Source: an uncultured Candidatus Saccharibacteria bacterium
GTDB lineage: Bacteria > Patescibacteriota > Minisyncoccia > Phycocordibacterales > UBA2100
Assembly (NCBI GenBank): GCA_964462785.1
Contig: CAYWZA010000002.1
Coordinates: 1,061-65,060 of the forward strand
Length of the DNA: 64,000 nucleotides
Reading direction: 5' to 3'
The notes under the pieces were generated by a model. It was not told the origin of the DNA. It saw nothing but the letters and a program-made list of their open reading frames with translations, and made no database searches. Made by a program: the position numbers and the translations under genes. Below are positions 518 through 54,816 of the stretch, in pieces. Numbering within the stretch: position 1 is the first letter of the stretch; every line of letters starts with the position of its first letter.

Positions 518-852
518 AAGGGTATTGACAAAGGGAGTCATGAGTGATATACTCCCTATGGTTATTCTATCACAAACGAAGTTGGTTCAGAGTCAAAAAT
601 CTCTCAACGATCGAGAGTTTTCCCGAGGATGGTGGCGGTACTTCGCCACGGCGGAGCCTTGCGGCCCCTCTCCTTAGGTGTTAGCTCGTCTTTCGATACC
701 TCATTGAAAGCATCGTTGAGAGATTTTTGATCCCGAACATTCAGGCACCACTACATTGAACGGTAGCACCCCGTTTAGAAAAAGAAACTCTTGACTTTTG
801 ATGTGCAACAAAAAAGAACCCTCGCGCAAACGAGGGTTTTGTTGCACTGTAC

Positions 853-2571
853 CTATGACGAGTACATCTTTACGTCGGCGTCCAAGTTTACTGTGCGCTC
901 CACCTCATCAAAAGAAGTAATACCGCGCAACACTTTCACCATGCCGTCTTGTGACATACGGCGGATCTGTTGCCGTTCTGCAGAGCGCCATATCTCACGC
1001 TCGCTCGATGTGGAACGAACAACCTTTTCCAGCTCCTCATCCATAAATATCGCTTCAACAATACCGATGCGTTTCTTGTAACCCATATTTCCGCACTCAG
1101 GGCATCCTTTTGGAAGCCACATCGTCTCCCGATTCTCCGGCATGTCGTCCGGGTGCGGCACGTTTTTCAGTAATTTATCCATAATCTCCTTTGCGCGCCC
1201 TGTGATTGGCACCGCCTCTCTGCAGTGCTCGCACAAAATACGCACGAGACGCTGTGCCATCGCCACGTTTACCGATGAGCCGAGGATTTCCGGTTGAATA
1301 CCCATGTCGATCAAACGGGGGAATGTGCCCGCAGCGTTGTTGGTGTGGAGTGTGGTAAACACCAAGTGACCAGTGAGTGCGGCGTGCACGGCGGTCGATG
1401 CAACTTCAGCATCACGAATTTCGCCCACCATGATGATATCGGGATCTTGGCGCAACGTGCTGCGCAAACCCTGCGCGAACGAGTACGTTTTTGATACCTG
1501 TGTTTGCACAACACCGGGGAGATGATATTCAATCGGGTCTTCAATAGTAACAATCTTCACCCCCGGCTTGTGCACCGCCTTCAAAAACGCATACAGCGTG
1601 GTGGTTTTACCGGATCCAGTGGGACCGGTGTTGAGAATCATGCCATTAGGGCGCTCGATTTCCTTCAAGAAAATATCCATCAGATACTTATCAAAACCCA
1701 AATTATCGAGAGAAAGACCGATCGTCGATGGATCAAGAATACGCATCACGATCGTCTCGGCGTAGTTGCCGGGGAGCACTGACACGCGAATCTCAATTTC
1801 CTTTTGGTTCACCACAATACTAAAACGACCGTCCTGCGCTATGTTTTTGAGATTCAATTTAAGACCAGAAAGGAGTTTGATGCGCGACGACACCAACGCA
1901 TAGGTGGTGTGATCAAAGGTGAGGATCTCACTCAGCACGCCGTCGAGGCGGTAGCGCATACGCACCAACCCTTCTTCGGGCTCGAGGTGCACATCGGACG
2001 CGCGCAGCGAAAGAGCGCCCGCCATGATGATTTCAAGTACGCGCGAAATGCGGTGTGCATCTTTACTACCCACATTCTCTCCGATGTGGCTGCTCACATC
2101 CTGGGTTGTTTTAAGTTCGGAGAGCATTTTCTGAATTGCCTCGTTTGAGATAGTGAGCACACCAGCCTCTGTTTCCGTTGCGAGAGAAAGATCACCATAG
2201 CGATCCCAGGCGTGTTCGAGGGAGGCGCTCGATACCATAAAGCGGCGCACCTGATAGCCAAGGCGTTCAAGATTTTGGACGCTTTGCAGGGAATTAGCGC
2301 GTTCGGGGGCGCGCATAGCGACAAACAGGCGCTTGCCGATCTTGCGAAATGCTGCCACCTCCGCTTCGCGCGCGTCTTTTTCCGGCACCAACTGCAGTGC
2401 GTCGGTGTCTATGGATTTGCTGGTGAGATCGGTGTATTCGACGTTGTATTTTCCCGCGAGTGCCTTTGCGAGCTCCTCTTCCTCGCGTTTGCGGAGCTGC
2501 TCGACGCGCTCGGTACTTTTCTGGTCATGGAACTGCGTAGTCATTGCTGATATTTTAGCACGTGCTATCAC
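853..2571 (-). CDS. pilB: Type IV pilus assembly ATPase, PilB/GspE family
   Basis: The 572-aa ORF carries the Walker A motif GPTGSGKTTTL and the GspE-family motifs IIMVGEIRD and TGHLVFTTLHTN. The true start may be an internal Met (MTTQFHDQ). Confidence 0.85.
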   Translation of the reverse strand: MIARAKISAMTTQFHDQKSTERVEQLRKREEEELAKALAGKYNVEYTDLTSKSIDTDALQLVPEKDAREAEVAAFRKIGKRLFVAMRAPERANSLQSVQNLERLGYQVRRFMVSSASLEHAWDRYGDLSLATETEAGVLTISNEAIQKMLSELKTTQDVSSHIGENVGSKDAHRISRVLEIIMAGALSLRASDVHLEPEEGLVRMRYRLDGVLSEILTFDHTTYALVSSRIKLLSGLKLNLKNIAQDGRFSIVVNQKEIEIRVSVLPGNYAETIVMRILDPSTIGLSLDNLGFDKYLMDIFLKEIERPNGMILNTGPTGSGKTTTLYAFLKAVHKPGVKIVTIEDPIEYHLPGVVQTQVSKTYSFAQGLRSTLRQDPDIIMVGEIRDAEVASTAVHAALTGHLVFTTLHTNNAAGTFPRLIDMGIQPEILGSSVNVAMAQRLVRILCEHCREAVPITGRAKEIMDKLLKNVPHPDDMPENRETMWLPKGCPECGNMGYKKRIGIVEAIFMDEELEKVVRSTSSEREIWRSAERQQIRRMSQDGMVKVLRGITSFDEVERTVNLDADVKMYSS

Positions 2572-9644: not shown

Positions 9645-10295
9645 ATGCTCTATGTATACGGAGGGGATTCGGTGAAATCACGCATCAAAATGCGGTCGAC
9701 GCTCGCCGCGCTCGAGAAGCGCGCGCCGCTCGCGCATCTGCTGCGGATTACTGACGAGGACGTTGCGGCGGTTTCCTATCCCGATTTACTCGCGGCGCAA
9801 GGGCTTTTTTATACGAAGCGCATTGTAGTGTTCGACAACGCGTTCAAAGAAAAAACAGCACAGGAAGTAGCAGTGGATCATCTCAAAGAGATGGCGCAAT
9901 CGGAGCACGTGTTTCTCATTCTTGAAGAAAATCCAAGCGCCACATTCAAAACCCAGCTGCTAAAACACGCGACAAAAGCTTTGATGGGGGAGAGTGATGC
10001 AAAACAAAAAGAGCAGGTGGACTGGAGCGCAACAAACGCGCTTGAGTCGCGGGATAGTGAGCGGCTCTGGAAATCGGTGTGCACGTCGCTGTTAAAAGGT
10101 GCTCCGGCTGAACAGGTGCACGGGCAGCTTTTTTGGAAAGCCAAGCAGCTGCTGCTTGAAAAACGGTTTCGCAATTGGCAGGAGCAGGAGCTTCGCGCAC
10201 TCGTGAGCACGCTCGCCGAGCTTCCCCAGCGCGCACGGCGCAAAAACATGGATATGGAATATGCGCTCGAGCTGTTTGCGTTGGGGGTGATGTAG
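9645..10295 (+). CDS. DNA polymerase III delta subunit-like protein (short HolA-like)
   Basis: The N-terminus LYVYGGDS resembles the HolA start, and the gene sits directly after polA. At 216 aa it is shorter than canonical HolA. The assignment is tentative. Confidence 0.4.
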   Translation: MLYVYGGDSVKSRIKMRSTLAALEKRAPLAHLLRITDEDVAAVSYPDLLAAQGLFYTKRIVVFDNAFKEKTAQEVAVDHLKEMAQSEHVFLILEENPSATFKTQLLKHATKALMGESDAKQKEQVDWSATNALESRDSERLWKSVCTSLLKGAPAEQVHGQLFWKAKQLLLEKRFRNWQEQELRALVSTLAELPQRARRKNMDMEYALELFALGVM

Positions 10296-10298
10296 TCC

Positions 10299-10431
10299 GC
10301 TAGCTCCCTAGCGCAGGTTTTCGCGAGCACGATAGCAGTGGTTGTTTGTATGAACATCACCACTGCGACATTGTTACACGCACGTGTACGCGCTGCGCGA
10401 TGCTCGCTTAAATCTGCGCTAGGGAGCTAGC
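10299..10431. repeat. Hairpin-enclosed intergenic element, copy A: a perfect 18-bp inverted repeat flanking a 97-nt interior with a conserved core
   Basis: The left arm gctagctccctagcgcag (10299-10316) is the exact reverse complement of the right arm 10414-10431. The interior contains atcaccactgcg, then 22 nt, then gcgctgcgcgatgctc. The same spacing is seen at 53049-53175. Confidence 0.7.
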
Positions 10432-10488
10432 CCACGACTATGCACACTATCTGTTTGCGCGGCAACATAAACCACGTAGCATGATGGT

Positions 10489-11940
10489 ATGAATGTCTCT
10501 TTTACGGGCTGGCGAACACAGCTCATTGTAGCCATCTCCTCACTTTTTATTCTATGTATTGTTGGAATGAGCACGCCGGCACATGCGCAGCAGGTGGATG
10601 CTGGGGCTAATGCGCAGTGTCAAGCTTCGTGGACCGGATATTACAGTGCGTGTATGGCGAGGCCGGGTGCAAGTGCTGCCGCATGTCAGCAAGAAGCTAA
10701 CGGGAAAAACCTAGCCACAGCATGCAGTGGAAAGTGTAGCGGTCTATGTAATTTCCCCATGGGAGGCGGAGCAATTGCAAATGTCTGTGGAGGGTTGAAG
10801 TGTGGTGACCAGCCCGAGGGGGCATCCGATGCGGGGGCACAAAAAGCCATGGAAATGGCGAAGCAGCTCATGGACGCCCTTAAAAGCAAATCTGGTGGGG
10901 GAGGGGGTGGCGCAGGAGGTGAAACACCGCCGTTTGAAAATACTCCTCCGCCTCCTCCTGATGCCGCAAACTTCAATACCAATAGCGCAACAAGCACGTT
11001 CGGGAGCATTTTTAATACGGGGACGAATAGCACCGCGAGCTTTACCCAAACCGCCGCGCAGCGTATTACCAACGCGGCTGCGGACATCTTCTCATCCATT
11101 GTGGGTGGTGCAGCCAGCGAGCAAGCGAATAATGCAAACAACACAGACGCGTCCGCCCTCAAAGGTTCACAACCCGTGGTCGGGAGCACGCAAGCAGAAC
11201 GCAACAAAAACAGCAAACGAGATCCAAAGGATGACATCATCACGCGGGGAAAAGATGACGCTGTTGCAATGAATCTCACATCGTTTTTCGATAGATTTTT
11301 CGGTCGGGATGAGCAGATGAATAATGGCGTATCATTTTTCGGGCGCCTGTGCACAGCACGACCATGGCAAGCGTCTCTAGTTGCGCGGGTACTTTCTGAA
11401 AACTTCTTTGATTCATTGTGTGCACGGCAGGGTTTTGCACTCGAGAATGGTCGCTCAGATGTTTTCAATGCACGTTTTGGCAGCGCCCTTGGCGGTGCTG
11501 AGCTTACGTGCCCGCATAAAGCGAAAATTGGAGACACGGTGAACATTGCATGGAACTGTGGCGCAACGCAGAGTGTTGGTCTTGGTTTTGATACGGGCGG
11601 GAGCCCGTCCGGCAGTGTTGCGCTGCAGCCAGAAGACACCGCAGAATACCAATTGCGTTGTGGGAATGGTGGTCGCGCCCGATGTCTCATTGAGATTGAA
11701 CGACCGCGTGCAGAAATTACCGCCTATCCAGCACTGGTGCGCCTTGGTGCGCGCACTGAAATTTTCTGGACGAGTGAGCACGTCGCCTCATGTGTCATCG
11801 AGGGCCCTGGGCTCAAAGAGCTAGGTGTTCGCGGCGCAGCGACTACTCCAGTTATTCTCACCGGCGTTACCTATACTATTGTGTGTCACGATGAGGCAGG
11901 CAGGGAAGCGCGAGACAGTGTGACCGTTGAAGCGAATTAA
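10489..11940 (+). CDS. Secreted paralog-family protein P1 (483 aa): signal peptide, Cys-rich N-terminal module, Gly-rich motif, C-terminal twin beta-domain
   Basis: Signal peptide ends ...TPAHA. The N-terminal motif is CQASWTGYYSAC and the Gly run is GGGGGGAGGETPP. The GRLCTARPW...FFDSLC motif is shared with P2. The C-terminal twin domain aligns with the C-termini of the 476-, 819- and 2785-aa proteins. Confidence 0.7.
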   Translation: MNVSFTGWRTQLIVAISSLFILCIVGMSTPAHAQQVDAGANAQCQASWTGYYSACMARPGASAAACQQEANGKNLATACSGKCSGLCNFPMGGGAIANVCGGLKCGDQPEGASDAGAQKAMEMAKQLMDALKSKSGGGGGGAGGETPPFENTPPPPPDAANFNTNSATSTFGSIFNTGTNSTASFTQTAAQRITNAAADIFSSIVGGAASEQANNANNTDASALKGSQPVVGSTQAERNKNSKRDPKDDIITRGKDDAVAMNLTSFFDRFFGRDEQMNNGVSFFGRLCTARPWQASLVARVLSENFFDSLCARQGFALENGRSDVFNARFGSALGGAELTCPHKAKIGDTVNIAWNCGATQSVGLGFDTGGSPSGSVALQPEDTAEYQLRCGNGGRARCLIEIERPRAEITAYPALVRLGARTEIFWTSEHVASCVIEGPGLKELGVRGAATTPVILTGVTYTIVCHDEAGREARDSVTVEAN

Positions 11941-15663: not shown

Positions 15664-16923
15664 TTATACCTTCCGCGCAGACATAAGCGCCTTTAATTCC
15701 TCGCGCACCACGACCTCATCGCTCCATGCAGTGTTGCGCCCACCCGCGCCATGAATGGATGGCTCGCTGCCTTTGCCGGTGATGAGCACCGCGTCATTGC
15801 CGAGCGCGCGCGAAAGCGCTTCGCGAATCGCGAGGCGACGATCGAGGATAATAGTGGGCGGCTTTTTCATATCACGCGCGATCATATCCGCGATAGATCG
15901 GGGATCTTCGTCATAGGGGTCCTCGGTGGTGAGAATCACTTCAGCACAGCGCTCATCGGCAATCGCTCCCATCACCGGGCGCTTCCAAAGATCGCGCCCG
16001 CCGCCGGTGCCACCCAATACACAGATGAGGCGCTTACCCTTGTATGCGTCATAGAGTGCAGTGAGTGAATCGGGCGTGTGCGCGTAATCAACAATGACGG
16101 AGAATGGCTGCCCCTCGGTAATCGATTGGGCGCGCCCGCGAATTTCGGTGACGCGCGCAAGCCCGCGTGCGATAACCGGCTCTTGAATATCGAAAGTGCG
16201 CGCGGTGATGGCCGCTGCGAGCGCGTTATAGAGAGAGAATAAGCCGGGGAGTGTTATGCGCATGTCGGTATCACCGAGATGAAATGACCCGCCGGTGTGA
16301 TCTGCATGATAGGGCTCCACTTGCTTGAGTGAAAAAGGAATGCGTTCATCAGCGTCGAGCGCAAGGAAGCGCCCCCCGAGCGCGTCGTCAGCGTTCGCTA
16401 CGATAACGCGGCGCGGCTTTTTCGAGCGGGCGAGCTGCTCGCCGAGCGAGAGTTTTGCGGCGATGTAAGCCTCAAGCGAACCATGCGAATCGATATGCTC
16501 GGGAGCGAGATTGGTAAACACGAGGCAATCCATATGGAGGAAGCGGTGGCGGAATTGTGCGGCACCCTCGGAGGTCATTTCAATGATGGCGACCGTGCAA
16601 TCATGATCAATTGCGCGCGCGAGGAAACGCTGAATGCCGAAGCGCCCGGGCATGCTCATGCGCAATGTATTTGGCTTGGTCTTCTCTCCCGTCTTTATGC
16701 GCAGCGAATTCAGCACTGCCGTTGTGTAGCCCGCTTCTTCAAAAATAGCGTTCAATAATTCGGTCGTGCTCGTTTTTCCTTTTGTGCCAGTAACGCCGAT
16801 GAGCGTAATCCGACGCGACGGCATAAAAAACACAAGCGATGCAAACCACGCCCAGAGAAAGTGATACACGGAAAGCAGTGGAGAGGGGACAGCTTCGCGC
16901 ACTGAAGATTTTACTCCCGCCAT
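15664..16923 (-). CDS. Mur ligase family protein (MurE-like, lacking the usual N-terminal domain; N-terminal TM segment)
   Basis: The ATP-binding loop reads LIGVTGTKGKTSTT. EMTSEG and NLAPEHIDSHGSLEAYIAAK match Mur ligase central-domain motifs. Confidence 0.6.
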   Translation of the reverse strand: MAGVKSSVREAVPSPLLSVYHFLWAWFASLVFFMPSRRITLIGVTGTKGKTSTTELLNAIFEEAGYTTAVLNSLRIKTGEKTKPNTLRMSMPGRFGIQRFLARAIDHDCTVAIIEMTSEGAAQFRHRFLHMDCLVFTNLAPEHIDSHGSLEAYIAAKLSLGEQLARSKKPRRVIVANADDALGGRFLALDADERIPFSLKQVEPYHADHTGGSFHLGDTDMRITLPGLFSLYNALAAAITARTFDIQEPVIARGLARVTEIRGRAQSITEGQPFSVIVDYAHTPDSLTALYDAYKGKRLICVLGGTGGGRDLWKRPVMGAIADERCAEVILTTEDPYDEDPRSIADMIARDMKKPPTIILDRRLAIREALSRALGNDAVLITGKGSEPSIHGAGGRNTAWSDEVVVREELKALMSARKV

Positions 16924-26089: not shown

Positions 26090-29000
26090 ATGGTACGCGT
26101 TTTATGCGGGTTAATCTTTGTATGCACACTCGCATCTTTTGTCCACACAACCTCAGCACAAGCTCAAAGTAAAAATTGTACGCCCGGGGGTACCTGCAGC
26201 ACCGAATTGGAAGGGGATACTACCACCACCGTTAGTGCCGGAGAAGACAAGGGTACCGCCACACAAGATACGCAACAGACAGGAAGCTGCACAAAAGAGC
26301 TGCAAGCGGCAGGAAAATGTAAGCCGGAGTGTCCAAAAGTAAACTATTCGAGTGTAACCGGTGGGATTGTCACCTGCTACAGCGAGGTGAGCGACAGCTG
26401 CTATATGAATGATAACGCCGGCACTGCTGAGTGTTCGAGTGACGAGATGCAAAAAATTATTGACGGGAAAACTCCTCCGCAAACTACCGATTACGTAGGT
26501 ACGCCGGGGTCACAGAGTGGCTCCTCTAGTGGGGTTCAAAGTCCTGAGATCGAAGCACAGAAGGCATTGCGCGACGCGGAATATAAGTTGGCACAGGCAC
26601 AAAAAAATTATGATCAGTGCTGGTGGGGTTGTGCTGATGAAAAAGCGGCGCTTGAGCAAGCTCAACAAACACGCGATGCAGTGCAAGATTCTGCAGATTA
26701 TCTTAACGAAATTGCCAATAAACCACCCGGTACCTACATACCCGAAACCCCATTGAATACAGCGTTGCAAAATAGTTGGGCTAACAATGTATTGCAACAG
26801 CCCGCACCGGCAGTAACAGAGAGTCGCTTGGGCGATTTCGGTAGCGGATTACGCGAAGCGCTCAGTCCTGATTCTTTTTCGAACTCAGCCTTTCGAGATC
26901 AGTGGAACGGGTGGAATCCAAACGTAACACCGAGCGACGGGGCGTTCAATCGTTTTGATTTTGGAAATAATAGCGGATTCAACTCATTTGGGCAGTCGGT
27001 CGGCAGTGATATTTCTGGAGGGCTGAGTGCTGGTCCGAGCTCATTCACTCCTTTTTCTTTTGACAGTGGCTTAACTGGGAGCCCGTACGATGGGTCCGCC
27101 CCGTTCGAGCCATTCGACTATGAAACTTCCCCCATCGGACCGGGTTGGGGGAATGACGACCTCGGAAAACTATCAAATTTCGATTTCTCGAATGCGCCGC
27201 TGCAGCCAAGCACTCTGCAAGATCTATCGAATTTAAATAACGGGTTATTACCCACACTCCCCAGTGTTTCAGATCCACTTGGTGCCCTGAAAAGTTTGGA
27301 TTCGGAGCAACTTCCTACGGTGTCAGATGCTCAATCACCGAATGATTTTCTTGGACTCAAGGCTATCGCAGAGCAACAACCGCCTGAAGGCAGCGGATTG
27401 AGTGCCGAGGATTTCAGCGAGCGCCTCGAAGTGTTTAAAAAAGGATTCGGCAATGTGGTGGACAGCCTCACTGAGGGGGTGCAGGGTATTTTTGCGGGAG
27501 ACATCAGCGCACCTGATTTTTGGGATAAAACACTTAAAAATATCGGCGTTGGTGTCAACGCTGGTTTGGGTGAAGGGGGAGTACGCCTCGGCGGCATCCT
27601 CGACTACTCTCCGCTAAGCGATGGCGGGCTATTGCCTGGTCTGCGGCAGACGGTCAAAGACGTGTTTGGGTGGGGAAGTGATGTCGCGACACCACCCGAG
27701 ATACCATCGGGGATACAAGGCGGCGGAGCGCTGACCGCAGGTGAGTCATATCGGCGAGAGCTCGATGCTGCGAAACAAGCATCCGCAGCTGCGGGCGAGC
27801 GCGCACGGCGAGCAGACGAAAACGCTCGCAGCACGGGATCCTATGATCCAGACAATGCCTTTGAAGTGGAAAGATACAATGCGGCGCAGGCAGAAATAAA
27901 AGCCGCACGTGAGGAGCAAGCAGCTGCGCAAGCGCGGCTTGCGGCAGCACAGGCGGATGTTGATCGTATCCGCGCGCGCGACAACCAAGTCCCCGGGCAG
28001 GGGAGCATTGCGAATACGGGCGTGAATGAAGCTAAGGTGGTGGCAGATTCGGGCGTACGCGATACACAGGGAACAGAAAGTCTTGCGTACCAGCGTGCAG
28101 CAAAAGACTACCAGGCATTATTACCCCTCGCGGCTCCGGTTACCAACGCTCTGCAAGACGCGAATAGCGCCTGGATAAAACGAGCTGAAGAAATAGGGCT
28201 CATTGAAAATATCGGAACAGCTGATAAGCCGCAATATCGAATACGCCCTGAACTCACGGAAACGCAACGGATCAATAAAATGGGAATGCTGCGCGACGAG
28301 ACCGATCGTCTCAATTTGGCAAAAGATCAATACAAGACATATGCAGAGACGCTCAAAGATGCTCGCGACAAAACTCTGTATGCGGCAGGTGCAGATCCGT
28401 TGTTTTCGGACGCCGCGCGGGCAAATGCACTTTTGGGCGATATGCGTCTAAGACCTGAACAAGAAATACCCATTGATGAATATTGGCAAGACAAAAATGG
28501 ACTGGCAATGGGAGTGGGCGCAGCGGGAGCTATGGGAAGATATGTTCTTAGAATGGATCCTTATCAACCAGTCATCAACTCAAATGCGCAAGAAATTGCA
28601 TTTAATGAACTGCAGGCAAAACAAGAAGCACTCATTCAATCATTAGCGGGATGTACCGACTGTCAAAATGTTATTGAAGCGATTGAACGCAACAATGAAC
28701 TTGCAAAACAATTTGAAAGCGGACAGTTTGAGGGAGCGCAAAAAGACTATCTCATAAAACTTTCAGACCAAAACCCTATTCAAAGGGATCTTCCAGTAGG
28801 GGATTTAACCACACAAGAATTAGCTTCGCGGGCAAGCAATGAATGGGGAAGGCTGCTCCGCGGTACGCAAGAATATCTTGGCGCGGAAATGGGTAAGGCG
28901 TGGGAGGAGGGAGAATATGGCAAAGCAACAGCTCTTTTCTTGCTACAAACCCCAGGGCAGATCACACAAGGCTTGCTCGGGGCTGAGTCGCTCCAAGGAC

Positions 29001-32000
29001 TTGGGCAAACACTATATGGTGCTGACACCAGTATTCTCGGGCTGACAATTCCCGGAGGGGAAGCGGGCTATAATATTGTAAGAAATGTCACCGATGCAGG
29101 GACTTTATCTGTAGTTACGGGTGCCTACTTATTTCCAGGACCGGCAGGGTTAGCACTAAGGGGAGCTGATAGCCTTGCCGCCAGCGCGGGGCGCTTTGCG
29201 GGTAACATTGCGGACGTCAGATCCGCCTTGAATGTTGCCGATAGTGGAGCGGGCTTTGGGTATGATTTTTCAGGGCGACCATCGGCGGATGCAATCATTC
29301 GTGATGGGGGCTTAGCAGTGGTACCCGAGAACAACATATCTACTGCGCCCGCGCGTGATGGTGGCTCAAGTCCTCCGCCTCAATTAACCTCGAACGCACC
29401 ATCTCCCACATCACGCTCCGTCACTCAACCCCCTCCATTGCGTAATGAATTCTCACCCACAGGTGGTGCGCGCACCAGTGGCAATGCGGTGCAAGGAGCG
29501 CCCCCCTCCGCCTCATTTATTCCAGGGACTTCGCCGCTCGGCGATCTTGCAGACGCAATGCGTCGAGGATCACCGACACTGATCACCCCGTCTAATTTCG
29601 GTCGGACCGGCGACGACGTTCTCTTCGGTGGTGCGGCGAATGACAATCTAATGGGCTCTACTCCTGCCGGAGGTCCGCCTTTGGAAAATAGGTGGTTTGC
29701 ATTTGCGCGCGCTCCCGAGGATGGAGGGGGAGCGGGGCGTGGAGGCACGATCATACCGTTTACTCCACGAGCGTCCGAGCTCCCAAGTGTCGGCGGTGGG
29801 GACACTATTGTATTTAGAGAAGGTTTTGGCAGTGATGCACCACCAGCTCGCGTGGACGCAGGTGCTATTGATGACGCGACACTGCGTGAGCTCGAAAACA
29901 TTCTCGCGAACGAGCCGGATCAATTTGTGTTTCGTACTGTTGATGATGCCGTCACACCCGATGGCGTGACAGATCTGTTGCAGCGCCGATACGGAGGAGC
30001 ATCTCTAGAGGAAATCGCAAAAGCACGGGAGGCAATACGGCTGAATGAAGCTGCCCGTCGTCTTGATTCTCAAAACACTTCGCAGGCAACCGCGGATGCA
30101 AGCACTTTGCGTGCCCGCGCTGCACAAATCGCAACCGACATCAATGATCCTGCTTTGGGTAGATTGGCTGAATCGTGGGGAGGGGAAAGAGCGCCGAGCG
30201 CAGCAGGTGCTGGCGTTCCAGATAGTGTCGTTGCAGCAGAGGCGGCACAGCCAAAACCCGCTTCTGGAATTTTATCCCCCATTACCAACACTCCATTCGC
30301 AAGAGCGTTGTGCGTTATAGGTGGCTTGTTCTGTGGGTCGCAAGCTGTTCCTGGGCAGTTGGTAAACGATCTCAATCCGTTGGGTATAAGTTCGGCAAAT
30401 GCAAAGCCGGCAGCGCTTCCGGTCCAATTAGTGCATGACGGTGTCTTGGGGGTTGAGACAGGTGCGGCGTCGACATACAACCCGAATGTGGTCGGGTGGA
30501 GAACGGGTGGGGAAAAACTTGCAACAGGCGGAAGATACAATCCCGATGAATTTGAAGCTGCGCTACAGACAGGATTGGCGGAACAGTATCGAATGGGGCA
30601 CAGCAGATACCCCAATGTCGGGTACGCGCTTGTGGAAGCGGAAGGCAGAAAACTTATTGTACGCATTAATGACAACGGTCCATTAGTTCGCAATCGCATC
30701 ATCGATCTCAACGAAGCCTCGATGCGCTATTTAAGTGGTGGTAGATATGGCAACAATTCGGGAGTATTGCAAAATACACGAGTAACTGTTTTGGCAGGAC
30801 AAAACTATACGCCGGGACCGCTTGCGAATGATGCCACTCTTCTCGCTCGGGCTGAAATACCGCCCGCAAGTCCAACAGCACCTCGCATAGAAACAGGATC
30901 ACTGAGCGCCCCTAAGTCAGCGGTGGATTCCGCAGTTGATGAAATTACAAAAAGGGCGGAGCAGGTGGGTGACGCTGTTAGAAAAGCAGGCGATGATCTT
31001 GCGAAAGCACTCGATATACGCCCCGGCACTCCGGAAACTGACTTCATGAAAAACGTGCAAGGGAAATTAGTGGAAACACCACCACCAGCGGCATTGATCA
31101 AAAATTTTGACGTTAACAATCACACTTCCGCAGAAGCAAGAGCGGTCCAGGAGGCGCTTAGAGCCCAGGGGTATGACACAGCTGTTGATGGAGTTATCGG
31201 TCCGCAGACAATACGCGCGCTCGAAAGCGCGAGAGTGGATATTGATGGTGCGTTGCGCAATATTTTCACAGACCAAGCTGACTATCAGCAAGCGCGCAGG
31301 ATATTCCTCGAAAGATTTAAAGGTATGCCCAAAAATTTTGAGCAACCACTGCTCACCATGTTGCGAAAGATGCAAGAGGCTGGTCAGGCGCTGCCCGGCG
31401 ATAATCAGCCGATCGTGCTGGTTAACGTAAGCGGAAGCAGAGAGGGGGTTGCCATTATGTCGCTCACACACAACGACGGGCTCCTTCTTTGGGAGGGAAG
31501 TCCGACACTCAGAGTCGGCGTAGCAGCTAATGGCCCGATTGATTGGGCAAAAGATTTTATTGGCTCGAACAAAACGATAGTGGGCTCAGTAGCAAAAATT
31601 ATTGGTGGGGAACATCGTGGAGACAAGGCTTGGGCAGTGGGCGCGCTTTATCGGGAGTCAATAGATGGGGGATTACAGAACGAGAGAGTCACATGGTATC
31701 ACGGAGTTTCTAATCGCGCCGTTACACCAGGCCAGCGCCCCAACGCAACATCGGGGTGTGTTTCAATGTGTTCTCTAGTGATGCAAAATTTGTATGATCA
31801 AGTGCTGGGAACCCCTGGTGTGGGGGAACCGGGGTGGCAACTCGCAGGTAGAGATGGGGCAGTGCGGGGAGCAAATAAGATTAACGGGGGATATACGTAT
31901 GAATTTTCTGAGCAAGTGACAAACAGCGTTGGTGTTGCAGAAAATAAGGCAATTGCCCAGAAAGAGCCGGTGATGGTTGCTGATGCTGCGCCAGGTGGTG

Positions 32001-34447
32001 GTGCGACTCAGGGTCTTACTCCTGAAACCGCCGAAATCGCTCGGGTGTATGAGATATCCGGAGAGACTGGAACGATACCAAAGGGAGCGATCCTTGAGGT
32101 GAGCCCGGATGGAAAAACATTAACCTATGGCGAGACCGTGTACCAAGCAAAACAGATTTCTGGAGAACCGATTCCGCTAGAACCCGCATCAGCACTTTCA
32201 ATTATAGATTTGAAACCTTTACAAGTGGACTGGCTAGACAGAATACAGATTGAAGGCGTTCCGAAGCTGGGACTAGAACTTCAGGTGTGGCGACCAGATT
32301 TCAACGCCGCGGTTGAAAATGTGATGCGGGGGGTCAATGATGGCATCTCTGAATTCAAACAAATCGTCAGTGGCGTACCCGGCGACATATCAAAATGGGT
32401 TTCTAGAAACAGCTTTAATGTCAGTGTTAGTCTTGAACCGAATCCGGCATGGCTTAAAGCGGTTGGAGATAGTGCTAATACTGCTGCAGAGCGAATAACA
32501 ATAATGTATCGGGACGCATATGCTGCTTTGGACGACTTCCCGTCAGCACCTCCCACGCCAGGTGACCCATTATTCGGTCTATTCGCCTTGGGTAGCACGC
32601 GACGCACATCAAATGCACCATCCCAAACACCAATACCCGAGGGGGTAGACACTCCGCCCGCAGGACTTGGGTTGCAGGCACCACCTTCAAAAATAGCAGG
32701 CACGGGTGATACACAGAAATTTGTACCTACCTCGCGCAACATTAATCCAGCACCGGTACGCGCGATTGATGATATTCCCGCACCGACAGATGGCGTAACT
32801 CCGCCATTGTCACGGACTCAACCTGATGTTACTGAGGGTATGAGTAAATCTGGTCGCACGGGAGGAGCTTCGATCACTGATGACACTGCCACAAACGGGA
32901 CAGTGCCCGCGAAACAAGACACTCCGCCCGCAGGACTTGGGTTGCAGGCACCACCTTCAAAAATAGCAGGCACGGGTGATACACAGAAATTTGTACCTAC
33001 CTCGCGCAACATTAATCCAGCACCGGTACGCGCGATTGATGATATTCCCGCACCGACAGATGGCGTAACTCCGCCATTGTCACGGACTCAACCAGTTGGT
33101 GATTCCGCTGCGAACATGACAGAACTCATGAGCCGAAGCGCACAGCAAAGTGCGCCAGCCACAGCCGCTTCAGTGGGTGCCATGAAGAAAGTTTCAAATA
33201 CAATCCGCGCTTGTGTAAATGGGGGATGGACGACGGCGAAGTGTGCGGGTGTTGCAATAGTCGCAACGTGGGCTGGGACATGCGCACTAACGGGGTACGA
33301 CGGTGTTCCATGCAATTGGCAAGGGACAAGGACAGGCACATGCATATCGGACGGAGGGAGGAAATGTGTTACAGGAGCATCCCCAGGAGCGGATGCAACA
33401 AAAGATGGTACAGAAAAAACACCACCTGCGGATACAGATAAAGACAGAACTGGCGCAGGCGCACCTCCACCAGATGATACAGGCGCAGGGAGGAGACCGC
33501 CTCCAAGTGCCCAGACGCCACCCAATAGTGGCACTGCAGCACCTACACGCACCACACAAGGAGGATCGGGTGGAAGTGGTCTTGGTGGATTGATGGGAAT
33601 GCTCGGGCAATTTATGCAGATGCTTACCGGGCAGGGAGCGCAAGAGCCAGATGCATCACCAACAGGATCGCCTAAGGCACCGACAACAGTGACTCTCTCC
33701 TGCGATCCGTCAATTATTCTCAATCGTGGCACGACAACGATTCGCTGGGCGTGCTCAGGTAATGAGCGCAGTACGGGAGTGAATTTCGATACACGCGGCG
33801 CGCCGTCGGGATCGGTGGAGCGGGGTATTGATACCATCGAGCAGAGCATGCAATTTGGCGTTTCGTGTGGCGGCAGCGCGCCGCGCAGCTGCTCAGTGCG
33901 CGTACTGCACCCGCGCATCACACTCACCGCATCTCCGGGCGAAGTGGAAAGCGGCACGCACGCACGACTCAATTGGGCTGGAGTGGGCGTGCGATCATGC
34001 GGAGTGCTCGCGCCTACCTCAAATGAAATTGCGCGCGGGACGGCGACAGGATTTGTCGACACGCCCGATCTCACACGCTCACAGCGCTTTGCGGTGGTCT
34101 GCTCTACTGATGCAGGCAAGCCTGTGCATGAATTCATTACCGTGCGCGTCGCAGGCGATGACACGGATCCGGAAGTAGTGGAGATTCCTGAAGCGTATAT
34201 GCGCACCACGCCTTCCTCCGCGGCGTCAGCGCTGCCCACCGCAGTGAGCGATCTGCCCTCAGAAGAGGGGAGTAGTTTCTTCGATGGTTCTGCAAATACT
34301 CCATCGCCCAGCGCACCACAAGAGCCGATCACACCGCCCCCCGGCACGTTCACCGCAACTGATGCTCAAGGCAACGCCGTCTTCCTCTGTGATCCTGAAG
34401 CAGGTATTGATACCTATATTTCGTGCATATCCGGAGGAAGGTGGTAG
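26090..34447 (+). CDS. Giant secreted multidomain protein P5 (2785 aa) with coiled-coil regions, a PG_binding_1 domain, a YkuD-like L,D-transpeptidase fold, an RlpA-like double-psi beta-barrel, an internal exact repeat and the family C-terminal twin beta-domain
   Basis: Signal peptide is MVRVLCGLIFVCTLASFVHTTSAQA. The RlpA/DPBB-like segment is TGGRYNPDEFEAA...LIVRINDNGPLVRNRIIDLNEASMRYL. The PG_binding_1 segment is TSAEARAVQEALRAQGYDTAVDGVIGPQTIRALE. The YkuD-like segment is WYHGVSNRAVTPGQRPNATSGCVSMCSLVMQNLYD. The Gly/Met motif is GGSGGSGLGGLMGMLGQFMQMLTGQG. The C-terminal 200 aa align with P1, P2 and P4. Confidence 0.8.
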   Translation: MVRVLCGLIFVCTLASFVHTTSAQAQSKNCTPGGTCSTELEGDTTTTVSAGEDKGTATQDTQQTGSCTKELQAAGKCKPECPKVNYSSVTGGIVTCYSEVSDSCYMNDNAGTAECSSDEMQKIIDGKTPPQTTDYVGTPGSQSGSSSGVQSPEIEAQKALRDAEYKLAQAQKNYDQCWWGCADEKAALEQAQQTRDAVQDSADYLNEIANKPPGTYIPETPLNTALQNSWANNVLQQPAPAVTESRLGDFGSGLREALSPDSFSNSAFRDQWNGWNPNVTPSDGAFNRFDFGNNSGFNSFGQSVGSDISGGLSAGPSSFTPFSFDSGLTGSPYDGSAPFEPFDYETSPIGPGWGNDDLGKLSNFDFSNAPLQPSTLQDLSNLNNGLLPTLPSVSDPLGALKSLDSEQLPTVSDAQSPNDFLGLKAIAEQQPPEGSGLSAEDFSERLEVFKKGFGNVVDSLTEGVQGIFAGDISAPDFWDKTLKNIGVGVNAGLGEGGVRLGGILDYSPLSDGGLLPGLRQTVKDVFGWGSDVATPPEIPSGIQGGGALTAGESYRRELDAAKQASAAAGERARRADENARSTGSYDPDNAFEVERYNAAQAEIKAAREEQAAAQARLAAAQADVDRIRARDNQVPGQGSIANTGVNEAKVVADSGVRDTQGTESLAYQRAAKDYQALLPLAAPVTNALQDANSAWIKRAEEIGLIENIGTADKPQYRIRPELTETQRINKMGMLRDETDRLNLAKDQYKTYAETLKDARDKTLYAAGADPLFSDAARANALLGDMRLRPEQEIPIDEYWQDKNGLAMGVGAAGAMGRYVLRMDPYQPVINSNAQEIAFNELQAKQEALIQSLAGCTDCQNVIEAIERNNELAKQFESGQFEGAQKDYLIKLSDQNPIQRDLPVGDLTTQELASRASNEWGRLLRGTQEYLGAEMGKAWEEGEYGKATALFLLQTPGQITQGLLGAESLQGLGQTLYGADTSILGLTIPGGEAGYNIVRNVTDAGTLSVVTGAYLFPGPAGLALRGADSLAASAGRFAGNIADVRSALNVADSGAGFGYDFSGRPSADAIIRDGGLAVVPENNISTAPARDGGSSPPPQLTSNAPSPTSRSVTQPPPLRNEFSPTGGARTSGNAVQGAPPSASFIPGTSPLGDLADAMRRGSPTLITPSNFGRTGDDVLFGGAANDNLMGSTPAGGPPLENRWFAFARAPEDGGGAGRGGTIIPFTPRASELPSVGGGDTIVFREGFGSDAPPARVDAGAIDDATLRELENILANEPDQFVFRTVDDAVTPDGVTDLLQRRYGGASLEEIAKAREAIRLNEAARRLDSQNTSQATADASTLRARAAQIATDINDPALGRLAESWGGERAPSAAGAGVPDSVVAAEAAQPKPASGILSPITNTPFARALCVIGGLFCGSQAVPGQLVNDLNPLGISSANAKPAALPVQLVHDGVLGVETGAASTYNPNVVGWRTGGEKLATGGRYNPDEFEAALQTGLAEQYRMGHSRYPNVGYALVEAEGRKLIVRINDNGPLVRNRIIDLNEASMRYLSGGRYGNNSGVLQNTRVTVLAGQNYTPGPLANDATLLARAEIPPASPTAPRIETGSLSAPKSAVDSAVDEITKRAEQVGDAVRKAGDDLAKALDIRPGTPETDFMKNVQGKLVETPPPAALIKNFDVNNHTSAEARAVQEALRAQGYDTAVDGVIGPQTIRALESARVDIDGALRNIFTDQADYQQARRIFLERFKGMPKNFEQPLLTMLRKMQEAGQALPGDNQPIVLVNVSGSREGVAIMSLTHNDGLLLWEGSPTLRVGVAANGPIDWAKDFIGSNKTIVGSVAKIIGGEHRGDKAWAVGALYRESIDGGLQNERVTWYHGVSNRAVTPGQRPNATSGCVSMCSLVMQNLYDQVLGTPGVGEPGWQLAGRDGAVRGANKINGGYTYEFSEQVTNSVGVAENKAIAQKEPVMVADAAPGGGATQGLTPETAEIARVYEISGETGTIPKGAILEVSPDGKTLTYGETVYQAKQISGEPIPLEPASALSIIDLKPLQVDWLDRIQIEGVPKLGLELQVWRPDFNAAVENVMRGVNDGISEFKQIVSGVPGDISKWVSRNSFNVSVSLEPNPAWLKAVGDSANTAAERITIMYRDAYAALDDFPSAPPTPGDPLFGLFALGSTRRTSNAPSQTPIPEGVDTPPAGLGLQAPPSKIAGTGDTQKFVPTSRNINPAPVRAIDDIPAPTDGVTPPLSRTQPDVTEGMSKSGRTGGASITDDTATNGTVPAKQDTPPAGLGLQAPPSKIAGTGDTQKFVPTSRNINPAPVRAIDDIPAPTDGVTPPLSRTQPVGDSAANMTELMSRSAQQSAPATAASVGAMKKVSNTIRACVNGGWTTAKCAGVAIVATWAGTCALTGYDGVPCNWQGTRTGTCISDGGRKCVTGASPGADATKDGTEKTPPADTDKDRTGAGAPPPDDTGAGRRPPPSAQTPPNSGTAAPTRTTQGGSGGSGLGGLMGMLGQFMQMLTGQGAQEPDASPTGSPKAPTTVTLSCDPSIILNRGTTTIRWACSGNERSTGVNFDTRGAPSGSVERGIDTIEQSMQFGVSCGGSAPRSCSVRVLHPRITLTASPGEVESGTHARLNWAGVGVRSCGVLAPTSNEIARGTATGFVDTPDLTRSQRFAVVCSTDAGKPVHEFITVRVAGDDTDPEVVEIPEAYMRTTPSSAASALPTAVSDLPSEEGSSFFDGSANTPSPSAPQEPITPPPGTFTATDAQGNAVFLCDPEAGIDTYISCISGGRW
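32648..33093 (+). repeat. Exact 176-bp direct repeat (period 270 bp) inside the giant gene
   Basis: The segment 32648-32823 matches 32918-33093 with no visible mismatch. Each encodes DTPPAGLGLQAPPSKIAGTGDTQKFVPTSRNINPAPVRAIDDIPAPTDGVTPPLSRTQP. The ORF track shows identical antisense ORFs over both copies. Confidence 0.85.
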
Positions 34448-47617: not shown

Positions 47618-48319
47618 TTGGTAGACGCTATTACCTTGAGGATATGCTACCATGTAGCGATGGGGAAGAGGGGACCAAAGCCGAAAGGCAAAGTAAAAAT
47701 TCGATGGTCGGCTGATTTTGCATACGCAATAGGGCTACTGGTGGCAGATGGGTGTTTATCTCCGAGTGGGAGGCATATCATTCTAGTTTCGAAAGACGAG
47801 GAGCAGCTACATAATTTTAAAAAAGCTTTGGCAATAGATGCACATATAACAAACTCATACCCACTCGCGACCAAAATACGTCGGATCCAGTTTGGGGATG
47901 TTCTGTTCTACCAGTTTTTACTAAGTATTGGGCTCATACCAAACAAATCGAAGGTTATCGGAAAGATACAGATTCCCAAAAAATACTTTTTCGATTTTCT
48001 TCGAGGATCCTTTGATGGTGATGGTTCTAGTTATTCATATTTTGACCCACGGTGGCAATCAAGTTTTATGTTTTACACCTGTTTTGTTTCTGCAAGCAAG
48101 ACGCATTTAGATTGGTTGCAGGAGGAAATCTTCAGCAGACTTGGAGTTAGTGGTCACATCACTCACACAAAAAGTAATACCTTCCACCAGTTAAAATATG
48201 CAAAAAAAGACTCACTTAAAGTATTGAGGAAAATGTACCACTCAAATAAAGTCACATGCCTTTCTCGCAAACGATTGAAAATTGATAAGATGTTAGATAT
48301 AGTTGGTGAACGTCTGTAG
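47618..48319 (+). CDS. LAGLIDADG-family homing endonuclease (double-motif, free-standing)
   Basis: Two LAGLIDADG-like motifs are present: AIGLLVADGCLS and FLRGSFDGDGSS. Local GC is lower than the surroundings. Confidence 0.7.
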   Translation: MVDAITLRICYHVAMGKRGPKPKGKVKIRWSADFAYAIGLLVADGCLSPSGRHIILVSKDEEQLHNFKKALAIDAHITNSYPLATKIRRIQFGDVLFYQFLLSIGLIPNKSKVIGKIQIPKKYFFDFLRGSFDGDGSSYSYFDPRWQSSFMFYTCFVSASKTHLDWLQEEIFSRLGVSGHITHTKSNTFHQLKYAKKDSLKVLRKMYHSNKVTCLSRKRLKIDKMLDIVGERL

Positions 48320-48343
48320 CATTGGAAGCTATCGACAAAGAAA

Positions 48344-48429
48344 GCCCGGGTGGCGAAACTGGCTAGACGTACCACCTTGAGGTGGTGGCGCCCGTTAAGG
48401 GCATGGAGGTTCGAGTCCTCTCCCGGGCA
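48344..48429 (+). tRNA. tRNA-Leu (anticodon GAG), type II
   Basis: The acceptor GCCCGGG pairs with CCCGGGC. The anticodon stem-loop is CCACC TTGAGGT GGTGG. There is a long variable arm, and the T-arm is GGAGGTTCGAGTCCTCT. Confidence 0.75.
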
Positions 48430-48483
48430 CAAAAAACAAAGACGTGGAATGCGAAGCATTCCACGTCTTTGTTTTTTGTGCCC
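48430..48483 (+). terminator. Hairpin terminator after tRNA-Leu
   Basis: The stem caaaaaacaaagacgtggaatgc has loop gaag and return strand gcattccacgtctttgttttttg. Confidence 0.7.
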
Positions 48484-53043: not shown

Positions 53044-53048
53044 GCGGC

Positions 53049-53175
53049 GCGGGCAAGTTTGAGGTCTTCGCTCGCACCACACTCGGGGTAGCTTAAACGT
53101 ATATCACCACTGCGCTGTTTCAGCACGCATGATAGCGCGCTGCGCGATGCTCTCGAAGACCTCAAACTTGCCCGC
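53049..53175. repeat. Hairpin-enclosed intergenic element, copy B: a perfect 22-bp inverted repeat flanking an 83-nt interior with the conserved core
   Basis: gcgggcaagtttgaggtcttcg (53049-53070) is the exact reverse complement of 53154-53175. The interior contains atcaccactgcg, then 22 nt, then gcgctgcgcgatgctc, as in 10299-10431. Confidence 0.7.
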
Positions 53176-53261
53176 ACTCCCGTCAAAACGATTCGACCTC
53201 GCTGCGTAGCGAATTTTTTGTTTTCATGAGAATATGCTCCAAGAAAAAAGGAGCGAAGGCA

Positions 53262-54158: not shown

Positions 54159-54229
54159 GTATATCAAGGTCCAAACCTTGCTATGTAAAAAGACCGGAGC
54201 ATTGCTCCGGTCTTTCATTGTTTCTAACA

Positions 54230-54730: not shown

Positions 54731-54816
54731 GTGTATTCACACCCTCTTTGTATACTGATTCAAGTCTTGCAAGACTATAGACTGCAAGATTGCGAGACAC
54801 AAGGTGAGACAGTTTC

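What the first reader, a model, noticed from the sequence alone, without database searches (positions are those of the whole stretch)
10299..10431. Hairpin-enclosed intergenic element sharing a conserved about 50-nt core with a second copy at 53049-53175
Two intergenic loci, one between the holA-like gene and P1 and the other between rplK and thyA, each consist of a perfect long inverted repeat (18 bp and 22 bp, with unrelated sequences). Each encloses about 85-97 nt containing ATCACCACTGCG, then 22 nt, then GCGCTGCGCGATGCTC at identical spacing. The outer stems differ completely in sequence but are both perfect, consistent with compensatory evolution. The conserved core could be a protein-binding site, a small RNA or the relic of a MITE-like repeat. 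In copy A the interior also forms nested stems (gcgagca/tgctcgc and gcagtggt/accactgc).
Basis: seen in the sequence. Interest (0 to 1): 0.65.

Follow-up and report, generated by a model that had tools for sequence, protein, structure and literature searches.

The report
Nested hairpin repeat in Kaiserbacteria genome
Two spots just after stop codons in a tiny groundwater bacterium (Candidatus Kaiserbacteria) carry the same roughly 100-base non-coding sequence, each wrapped in a different long perfect hairpin; it is most likely a small selfish or mobile palindromic repeat nested inside other such repeats, which is of moderate interest.

Summary
Perfect inverted repeats lie at 10299-10431 (18 bp) and 53049-53175 (22 bp). 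Both enclose ATCACCACTGCG-N22-GCGCTGCGCGATGCTC (0 of 100 shuffles). Homology covers about 100 nt (65/97 identical), including a short terminal inverted repeat of its own.

The source is a Candidatus Kaiserbacteria (CPR) MAG. There is no Rfam match, no ORF and no further copy in the window, in about 125 kb of relatives, or in three public collections.

Orthologous sites decide the interpretation. The site after the holA-like gene is empty in two relatives and holds an unrelated 73-nt hairpin in a third. The site after rplK holds unrelated hairpin elements of 126-127 nt in two relatives and only a terminator in three. Other hairpin families in this clade keep their arms across genomes at non-orthologous sites, and one carries another hairpin element in its loop.

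So the stems did not co-evolve by compensatory change. The best reading is a roughly 100-nt inner repeat nested in two unrelated palindromic insertion modules, co-transcribed in 3' UTRs. It is not an L11/L1 leader. The mobilising mechanism and any function remain inferred. It is a new variant of the REP/BOX/RPE/MITE kind, supported by only two copies.

The parts
10299..10316 (+). Copy A, outer hairpin, left arm (GCTAGCTCCCTAGCGCAG). It starts 3 nt after the TAG stop codon of ORF 9645-10295.
   Evidence: It is a perfect complement of 10414-10431.
10315..10413 (+). Copy A, inner element of about 99 nt that is homologous to copy B. It has a degenerate terminal inverted repeat (AGGTTTTCG / CTTAAATCT, 6 of 9).
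   Evidence: 65/97 identical, ungapped. nhmmer E = 1.8e-29.
10356..10367 (+). Copy A, conserved block 1 (ATCACCACTGCG).
10389..10405 (+). Copy A, conserved block 2 (CGCGCTGCGCGATGCTC). It contains the palindrome CGCGC-T-GCGCG.
10414..10431 (+). Copy A, outer hairpin, right arm (CTGCGCTAGGGAGCTAGC).
10439..10491 (+). Conserved block upstream of the next gene (TATGCACAC...GTTTGCG...ATAAA..CGTAGCATGA..ATG). It is present in all four genomes compared, whether or not a hairpin module is present, and it marks the right-hand edge of the insertion site.
53049..53070 (+). Copy B, outer hairpin, left arm (GCGGGCAAGTTTGAGGTCTTCG). It starts 5 nt after the TAA stop codon of rplK (52621-53043). Its inner 9 nt are also the left terminal repeat of the inner element.
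53062..53162 (+). Copy B, inner element of about 101 nt that is homologous to copy A. It has a perfect 9-bp terminal inverted repeat (AGGTCTTCG / CGAAGACCT).
   Evidence: nhmmer E = 2.2e-29.
53103..53114 (+). Copy B, conserved block 1 (ATCACCACTGCG).
53136..53152 (+). Copy B, conserved block 2 (CGCGCTGCGCGATGCTC).
53154..53175 (+). Copy B, outer hairpin, right arm (CGAAGACCTCAAACTTGCCCGC).
53199..53222 (+). Small intrinsic-terminator-like hairpin (TCGCT-GCGT-AGCGA) followed by a T-run, downstream of copy B. It is conserved in relative L040 with a compensatory change (TCGCC/GGCGA). It places copy B inside the rplK 3' UTR.

Best explanation
Copies A and B are two members of a small non-coding repeat about 100 nt long. 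Its ends are AGGTyTTCGC..GCAC and GATGCTC.C..A.A.CT, with a 9-bp terminal inverted repeat that is perfect in B. Each copy sits at the centre or loop of a different, unrelated palindromic hairpin module.

The outer hairpins are themselves lineage-specific insertions placed 3-5 nt after a stop codon. They belong to a wider population of REP/BOX/RPE-like hairpin elements that are gained, lost, replaced and nested in Candidatus Kaiserbacteria genomes.

Both composites lie on the coding strand of the upstream gene. B lies before the real terminator of rplK. They should therefore be co-transcribed as very stable 3'-UTR hairpins.

**Shown:**
- the homology between A and B;
- non-coding status;
- insertion/deletion polymorphism at both sites;
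- unrelated arms;
- arm-conserving hairpin families at non-orthologous sites;
- one clear case of nesting in a relative.

**Inferred:**
- that the inner element entered pre-existing hairpin loops, rather than the arms being added around it;
- the mobilising enzyme, which is unknown;
- any RNA-level consequence, such as a 3' exonuclease barrier, an RNase III substrate, or a terminator/insulator role at site A.
For: 1. **Homology.** The composite motif matches only twice, with 0 of 100 shuffles matching. The local alignment has z = 21, identity is 65/97 without gaps, and conserved ends give a 9-bp terminal inverted repeat.

2. **Non-coding, not a known RNA.** Every frame has a stop codon in at least one copy, and mismatches show no marked codon periodicity (7/11/14, not tested statistically). 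There is no Rfam family match.

3. **Site A is polymorphic.**
   - It is empty in L044 and L046, where the stop codon is followed directly by the conserved TATGCACAC... block.
   - In L042 it holds an unrelated 73-nt hairpin with perfect 23-bp arms.

4. **Site B is polymorphic.**
   - L040 carries an unrelated 127-nt hairpin element. Its flanks still align with the window at about 75-80%.
   - L035 carries an unrelated 126-nt element.
   - L025, L029 and L045 have ordinary terminators only.

5. **Hairpin families spread between genomes and sites.**
   - The CGCTTC|GCCGCCACAyCCTTT... family occurs at site A in L042 and after the SpoU gene in L046.
   - That SpoU site has no module in the window or in L042.

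6. **Nesting precedent.** ATACCATCTCCAATTA-type arms (imperfect left arm in L046) enclose 14 nt in L046. In L035 they enclose 126 nt, and that interior is itself a hairpin element with 16-bp arms.

7. **Position.** Seven of nine intergenic modules begin between -1 and 11 nt after a stop codon (gene tables; sequences).

8. **Stability.** Fold energies are -63 to -81 kcal/mol with z from -6.2 to -9.9. A separate terminator lies after B.
Against: - Only two copies are known. None was found in the rest of the window, or in about 125 kb from eight related genomes (about 220 kb fetched including redundant assemblies), by nhmmer or covariance model. Exact-pattern scans of genome, metagenome and viral collections also found none.
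- No stand-alone copy of the outer arms of A or B, and no inner element outside a hairpin, has been seen. The direction of events is therefore inferred by analogy.
- There is no target-site duplication.
- No transposase, integrase or reverse transcriptase was found among the 30 window ORFs scanned.
- The conservation pattern is two perfect internal blocks (12 and 17 nt) amid segments close to random. That looks more like selection on a sequence-specific function than like neutral decay of a transposon.
Confidence: 0.5

Rival explanations
1. A and B are paralogous cis-acting RNA elements in 3' UTRs. A long closing helix presents a multiloop whose conserved blocks (AUCACCACUGCG, CACGCA, CGCGCUGCGCGAUGCUC) are bound by one RNA-binding protein or RNase, or act as the seed of a 3'-UTR-derived sRNA. 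The closing helix need only pair, so its sequence is free to vary.
For: - Two blocks are perfectly conserved at fixed spacing amid saturated sequence.
- Both copies have the same orientation as the upstream gene, and B lies upstream of the terminator.
- The folds are very stable.
- The clade has at least one conserved RNA-like element enclosed by a long stem (window 585-738 and L046 583-727, with 3 compensatory pairs).
Against: - Positional orthologues in close relatives lack the core entirely, or the site is empty.
- The interior helices are not conserved between A and B. H1 and P2 of A are largely broken in B.
- The two strands give conflicting support: B folds better on the minus strand (-75.3 against -63.1).
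- There is no G-U pair in the 40 arm base pairs.
- Two sequences give no usable covariation in the interior.
Confidence: 0.25
2. It is a DNA-level site: a cruciform-prone palindrome presenting a conserved core to a DNA-binding or recombination protein. Candidates include a structure-specific recombinase acting on an attC-like site, a nucleoid or partition protein, or a nicking enzyme.
For: - The arms are perfectly Watson-Crick complementary, so they pair on both strands.
- Block 2 contains the 11-bp palindrome CGCGC-T-GCGCG (direct reading of the sequence).
- Hairpin modules behave like cassettes that are gained and lost.
Against: - There are no attC R''/R' boxes (RYYYAAC...GTTRRRY) at the ends.
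- No integrase or recombinase was found among the ORFs scanned.
- Only two sites are known.
- Nothing ties the core to any known operator, dif or parS consensus (recalled from memory, not formally tested).
Confidence: 0.1
3. They are independent small-RNA genes with their own promoter and terminator, on either strand.
For: - A weak sigma-70-like match lies on the minus strand inside B (53156-53129, 9/12).
- The minus strand of B folds well.
Against: - Neither strand of copy A has a promoter-like or terminator-like site.
- The single promoter-like match in B is at the level expected from shuffles.
- The hairpins are not followed by a T-run.
- The loci are absent from relatives.
Confidence: 0.07
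4. It is a chance resemblance or an assembly artefact.
For: Only two copies are known, and the genome is GC-rich, which favours GC-rich k-mer matches (searches show such chance hits elsewhere).
Against: - 0 of 100 shuffles matched, and z = 21.
- The sequence is identical in an NCBI MAG and in an independent Logan assembly.
- The elements lie in the interior of contigs.
Confidence: 0.02

Closest known systems
Pneumococcal BOX / RUP / SPRITE and enterobacterial REP/BIME small interspersed repeats (listed in PMC3184786)
   Same: - Short (about 35-150 nt), non-coding, hairpin-forming and intergenic.
- Often sit at gene 3' ends and are co-transcribed.
- Present or absent between strains.
- Modular or mosaic: BOX has conserved ends with a variable middle, and BIMEs are mosaics of REPs.
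- REP-containing BIMEs can affect mRNA stability (PMC3184786).
   Different: - Those families have tens to hundreds of copies that share their pairing arms. Here only two copies are known, and they share the interior but not the long arms.
- There is no GTAG/RAYT signature.
- The arms are perfect and unusually long (18-22 bp).
Rickettsia palindromic elements (RPE, about 105-146 bp; PMC3184786, table)
   Same: Similar size (127-133 nt), whole-element hairpin architecture, and a small reduced genome of a host-dependent bacterium.
   Different: RPE copies are alignable over their whole length and often lie in-frame inside genes. A and B share only the inner 100 nt and lie just outside genes.
MITEs (for example Correia/CREE and other prokaryotic MITEs; reviewed in PMC10969869)
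   Same: The inner element is about 100 nt and non-coding, has a short terminal inverted repeat, and shows insertion polymorphism at orthologous sites.
   Different: There is no target-site duplication, no cognate IS or transposase has been seen, and the copy number is 2 in the data reachable.
Insertion of mobile DNA into palindromic repeats (IS1397/ISKpn1 into REPs; IS621 next to REPs; PMC3184786)
   Same: This is a precedent for an element that targets palindromic repeat units, which is the event proposed for the inner element and seen as nesting in L035 against L046.
   Different: Those are full insertion sequences encoding transposases, not 100-nt non-coding elements.
Repetitive hairpin-forming elements of sponge mitochondrial genomes (PMC2800124, title and abstract)
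   Same: Hairpin-forming repeats that invade the intergenic regions of compact genomes repeatedly.
   Different: The host is organellar, the families are unrelated, and no conserved-core-with-variable-arm architecture is reported in the abstract.

Membership tests
MITE | Several copies alignable over their full length, including the terminal inverted repeats | tested here: inconclusive
   Two copies share the inner 97-101 nt and a 9-bp terminal repeat (perfect in B, 6/9 in A). The 13-16 bp outer parts of the long arms are unrelated.
MITE | Target-site duplication flanking the element | tested here: not met
   The flanks are GC|..|GC in A and TG|..|CA in B at the inner boundary, and TCC|..|CCA and GGC|..|ACT at the outer boundary. 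There is no consistent direct repeat.
MITE | A cognate autonomous IS or transposase with matching ends | tested here: inconclusive
   Pfam found none among the 30 window ORFs scanned. The rest of the genome could not be reached.
MITE | Presence/absence polymorphism at orthologous sites | tested here: met
   Site A is empty in L044 and L046. Site B has only a terminator in L025, L029 and L045.
REP/BIME (RAYT-associated) | Imperfect palindrome of about 20-40 nt with a conserved 5' GTAG, in high copy number, plus a RAYT (Y1 transposase) gene | tested here: not met
   The elements are 127-133 nt with perfect 18-22 bp arms and share no GTAG head. Two copies are known, and no Y1 transposase was found among the ORFs scanned.
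Integron attC site | R''(RYYYAAC) and R'(GTTRRRY) boxes at the hairpin base, with a cassette/IntI context | tested here: not met
   The ends are GCTAGC...GCTAGC and GCGGGC...GCCCGC. The upstream genes are core genes (rplK; the polA operon), and no integrase was seen.
Intrinsic (Rho-independent) terminator | GC-rich stem with a short loop, followed directly by a U-tract | tested here: not met
   The scan found no terminator-like site at A. At B the only such site is a separate 5-bp hairpin with a T-run at 53199-53222. The loops are 83-97 nt.
Ribosomal-protein leader (L11/L1 operon) or other Rfam cis-regulatory RNA | A match to the family covariance model, plus the regulated gene downstream | tested here: not met
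   There is no Rfam hit at gathering score. The only match below E = 1 at either locus is a sub-threshold miRNA-precursor (generic hairpin) match to copy A (29.6 bits against a gathering score of 110). rplA is not downstream of rplK in this clade.
Retron ncRNA (msr-msd with a1/a2 repeats) | Flanking inverted repeats plus an adjacent reverse-transcriptase gene | tested here: not met
   The neighbours are the holA-like gene and P1, and rplK and thyA. No reverse-transcriptase domain was found.
Structured RNA family with a covarying closing stem | Homologues in related genomes that keep the core while the stem covaries | tested here: not met
   Positional orthologues lack the core. nhmmer and covariance-model searches of the relatives returned only noise-level hits. 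With only two sequences, interior covariation cannot be tested.

The most novel reading that the evidence does not exclude
Candidatus Kaiserbacteria (CPR) genomes may host a previously undescribed system of structure-targeting hairpin elements. These would insert within a few nucleotides of stop codons and into the apical loops of one another, without a target-site duplication and without any recognisable transposase. On this reading the A/B core, with its two invariant blocks, would be the recognition module of the mobilising enzyme or of an RNA-binding factor that has been co-opted for 3'-UTR control.
Probability: 0.15. Interest if true: 0.65.

Novelty: new variant of a known kind. Interest (0 to 1): 0.35.

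Why it matters
CPR/Patescibacteria genomes are tiny and usually described as poor in repeats and mobile DNA. I found no paper describing small palindromic repeats in them (the full-text library searched is limited).

If the picture holds genome-wide, these organisms carry a fast-turnover layer of nested hairpin elements right behind stop codons. That would affect several things:
- mRNA 3'-end structure;
- terminator annotation and MAG assembly;
- the question of how such elements move in genomes that lack obvious transposases.

As it stands, the specific finding is a two-copy, strain-specific repeat of unknown function.

Tried and rejected
**Searches for more copies**
- Exact-pattern scans with CACCACTGCG-N(18-26)-GCTGCGCGATGC over genome contigs gave 13 hits, metagenome contigs 9 hits and viral contigs 0 hits. 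All hits are single chance matches inside unrelated contigs from other taxa, with no similarity to A or B outside the pattern, and they score at noise level against the A+B profile. The source genome itself is not in the species-representative set.
- An nhmmer profile built from A and B found only A and B in the window. It found nothing convincing in the loci from eight related genomes.
- A covariance model (R1) gave the same result. Its single 23-bit partial hit at window 15766-15826 overlaps the Mur-ligase ORF (15664-16923, which lies on the minus strand) and matches neither block. I judged it chance.
- blastn in 'distant' mode found no match for copy A in phages or for copy B in plasmids.

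**Other tests**
- Rfam gave nothing at gathering score or with the permissive E-value setting.
- The coding hypothesis (a small peptide or a gene fragment) is rejected.
- I first thought the element had inserted into an ordinary terminator hairpin. That is weakened. This genome's terminators are A-tract/GC-core/T-tract hairpins with 3-4 nt loops, the A/B arms have no T-run, and B has its own separate terminator downstream.
- I considered distant homology between A and the modules in L040 and L039 through the shared 9-mer TTTCGCGAG, where 3 of its 5 occurrences fall inside modules. Pairwise z-scores are <= 3.4, so this stays unproven.
- Two literature searches for CPR/Patescibacteria palindromic repeats found nothing specific.

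**Limit reached.** I could not reach the rest of the source genome.

Full report
**1. Observation**

Both loci are as described.
- Copy A has perfect 18-nt arms at 10299-10316 and 10414-10431 around 97 nt.
- Copy B has perfect 22-nt arms at 53049-53070 and 53154-53175 around 83 nt.
- The composite motif ATCACCACTGCG-N22-GCGCTGCGCGATGCTC occurs at 10356-10405 and 53103-53152 and nowhere else in the window, even with 3 mismatches allowed. None of 100 dinucleotide shuffles produced a match (single blocks).

- It runs without gaps over 10315-10413 against 53062-53162, with 65/97 identical.
- It includes a conserved left end (AGGTyTTCGC..GCAC), a conserved CACGCA, and a right end that forms a 9-bp terminal inverted repeat with the left end. 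That repeat is perfect in B (AGGTCTTCG/CGAAGACCT) and 6/9 in A.
- Outside this segment, the outer 16 bp of A's arms and the outer 13 bp of B's arms are unrelated.

Both strands of both copies fold far better than shuffles (-63 to -81 kcal/mol, z from -6.2 to -9.9).

**2. Context**

The window comes from a Candidatus Kaiserbacteria (Parcubacteria/CPR) genome.
- The flanking proteins are found, residue for residue, in MAG GCA_016181805.1 and in Logan assemblies.
- The closest homologues that carry a taxon name are called Kaiserbacteria, Parcubacteria or Patescibacteria by their sources.
- GC content is about 52%, and GC skew is positive across nearly the whole window.

Copy A begins 3 nt after the stop codon of a 216-aa ORF. 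That ORF has only a sub-threshold match to the C-terminus of holA, and it follows polA.

Copy B begins 5 nt after the stop codon of rplK, in the order secE-nusG-rplK. It is followed by thyA, with folA and dcd next on the opposite strand. rplA is not there, in this genome or in its relatives, so this is not an L11/L1 leader.

A small terminator-like hairpin with a T-run lies downstream of B at 53199-53222. It is conserved in a relative with a compensatory change. B is therefore inside the rplK 3' UTR.

No promoter-like or terminator-like site flanks A.

**3. What it is not**

- **Not a known RNA family.** There is no Rfam family at gathering score. At permissive E-values the one notable match is a sub-threshold miRNA-precursor hit, which means a generic hairpin.
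- **Not coding.** Every frame contains a stop codon in at least one copy, and mismatches show no marked codon periodicity.
- **No mobilising enzyme seen.** No transposase, integrase or reverse transcriptase was found among the 30 window ORFs scanned.
- **No further copies in reach.**
  - None in the window (nhmmer; covariance model).
  - None in about 125 kb from eight related genomes.
  - None among phages or plasmids.
  - Exact-pattern scans of the genome, metagenome and viral collections returned only chance hits in unrelated contigs from other taxa.

**4. Comparative evidence (the decisive part)**

*Site A.*
- Two relatives, L044 and L046, have upstream proteins 71% and 61% identical to the window's. 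In both, the stop codon is followed almost directly by the conserved block TATGCACAC...GTTTGCG...ATAAA..CGTAGCATGA..ATG that precedes the next gene.
- The whole 133-nt hairpin is therefore an indel.
- A third relative, L042 (MAG GCA_016204805.1), has at the same place an unrelated 73-nt hairpin with perfect 23-bp arms and a 27-nt loop.

*Site B.*
- The closest relative, L040 (NusG 93% identical), has flanks that align with the window at about 75-80%. Between them sits an unrelated hairpin-enclosed element, also 127 nt long.
- L035 has another unrelated element of 126 nt.
- L025, L029 and L045 have only ordinary terminators.

The A-B pair is the only significantly similar pair among 11 such modules (z = 21, all others <= 3.4).

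*Hairpin modules form families that keep their arms across genomes at non-orthologous sites.*
- CGCTTC|GCCGCCACAyCCTTT...AAGGrTGTGGCGGC|TnCGCTC occurs at site A in L042 and after the SpoU gene in L046. That SpoU site is unoccupied in the window and in L042.
- The ATACCATCTCCAATTA-type arms (the left arm has two mismatches in L046) enclose 14 nt in L046. In L035 they enclose 126 nt, and that interior is itself a hairpin element with 16-bp arms.
- Seven of nine intergenic modules start between -1 and 11 nt after a stop codon.

**5. Interpretation**

- The arms of A and B have different origins.
- Arms in this clade are not intrinsically fast-evolving.
- The 40 arm base pairs contain no G-U, which is unlike RNA stems drifting by compensation (inference).

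The most economical model has three parts.
1. Kaiserbacteria carry REP/BOX/RPE-like palindromic insertion modules that land just behind stop codons.
2. These modules can carry further elements in their loops.
3. A and B are two copies of one inner element of about 100 nt, sitting in two unrelated outer modules.

By position, both should be transcribed with the upstream gene as extremely stable 3'-UTR hairpins. Plausible consequences are protection against 3' exonucleases, RNase III cleavage, or, at site A, termination or insulation ahead of the next gene's conserved upstream block. None of these could be tested here.

The main weakness of this model is the conservation pattern. Two invariant internal blocks stand amid near-random sequence, which looks like selection for a sequence-specific partner. 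For that reason I give a cis-acting RNA or protein-binding role substantial weight: 0.25 for the RNA reading and 0.10 for the DNA reading.

**6. Comparison with known systems**

It works like small interspersed palindromic repeats: REP/BIME, pneumococcal BOX/RUP/SPRITE, Rickettsia RPE and MITEs (catalogued in PMC3184786 and PMC10969869). The nesting recalls IS1397 inserting into REPs (PMC3184786).

It fails formal membership of several families.
- **MITE:** no target-site duplication, no cognate IS seen, arms not shared.
- **REP/RAYT:** wrong size, no GTAG, no Y1 transposase gene seen.
- **attC:** no R boxes.
- **Intrinsic terminator:** no U-tract, and the loop is very large.
- **Rfam families:** no match.

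What is unusual is the shared core with unrelated, perfect, long arms, the location in a CPR genome, and the very tight spacing from the stop codon.

**7. Verdict**

This is a real, non-coding, two-copy repeat. It is most likely a nested palindromic insertion element, a new variant of a known kind. The mobilising mechanism and the function are unknown. Interest is 0.35. Scanning the complete genome, and mapping metagenomic and metatranscriptomic reads from the source samples, would settle the matter quickly.

Noticed in passing
window 585-738 (and L046 583-727): A 154-nt structured element with a closing stem of 19-27 bp. It lies between a small ORF and the 3' end of the pilB/T2SS-ATPase-like gene (853-2571, minus strand). 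A relative conserves it at the same locus at about 85% identity, arms included, with 3 compensatory pairs on the + strand. It has no Rfam match. It is a candidate conserved ncRNA and behaves differently from A and B.
   Followed up: partly
L042 2411-2483; L046 9998-10068 and about 876: A hairpin family with conserved arms and flanks (CGCTTC|GCCGCCACAyCCTTT...GGCGGC|TnCGCTC). It occurs at different gene ends in two Kaiserbacteria genomes. A third, single-arm occurrence lies next to a terminator in L046.
   Followed up: partly
L035 13299-13456 against L046 10082-10137: The same hairpin-arm family (right arm identical over 18 nt; the left arm has two mismatches in L046) encloses 14 nt in one genome. 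In the other it encloses a 126-nt interior that is itself a hairpin element (16-bp arms ATACATTCTTGAATTT). This is a clear case of nested hairpin elements.
   Followed up: yes
window 56173-56291; L039 7420-7555; L035 6189-6350; L029 4059-4200: Further singleton intergenic hairpin-enclosed modules, with arms of 14-23 nt (L029's are imperfect, 91% complementary) and spacers of 91-126 nt. No significant sequence similarity among those compared. The one in L039 ends 1 nt before the start of a PIF1-helicase gene.
   Followed up: partly
window 47618-48483: A free-standing ORF with a LAGLIDADG_3 domain (47618-48319) lies after rplS. It is followed by a tRNA-Leu(gag) at 48344-48430 that ARAGORN calls but Rfam did not report at gathering score. 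That tRNA overlaps a perfect 28-bp hairpin at 48425-48483.
   Followed up: no
window 59907-63320: The isoleucyl-tRNA-synthetase-like protein (1137 aa) carries a histidine-phosphatase (His_Phos_1) domain inserted at residues 492-672.
   Followed up: no
L035 1523-1897: An intergenic array of alternating inverted copies of TTCAAGTCCTCTCCTGC, which resembles a tRNA T-arm and acceptor end, with spacings of 55 and 94 nt.
   Followed up: no
window 52621-55503 and relatives: In this Kaiserbacteria clade rplK is followed by nucleotide-metabolism genes rather than by rplA. These are thyA or thyX (Thy1), folA, and dcd/dCMP deaminase, and the set varies from genome to genome.
   Followed up: no
window 26090-34447: A 2785-aa ORF. 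By coordinate arithmetic, the contig break of MAG GCA_016181805.1, between contigs 11 and 12, falls inside it at about window 32745-32995.
   Followed up: no
window 50472-50485: The 14-mer TGCGCGATGCTCGC, which is part of conserved block 2 as it reads in copy A, recurs inside a 130-aa ORF. This is probably chance.
   Followed up: no
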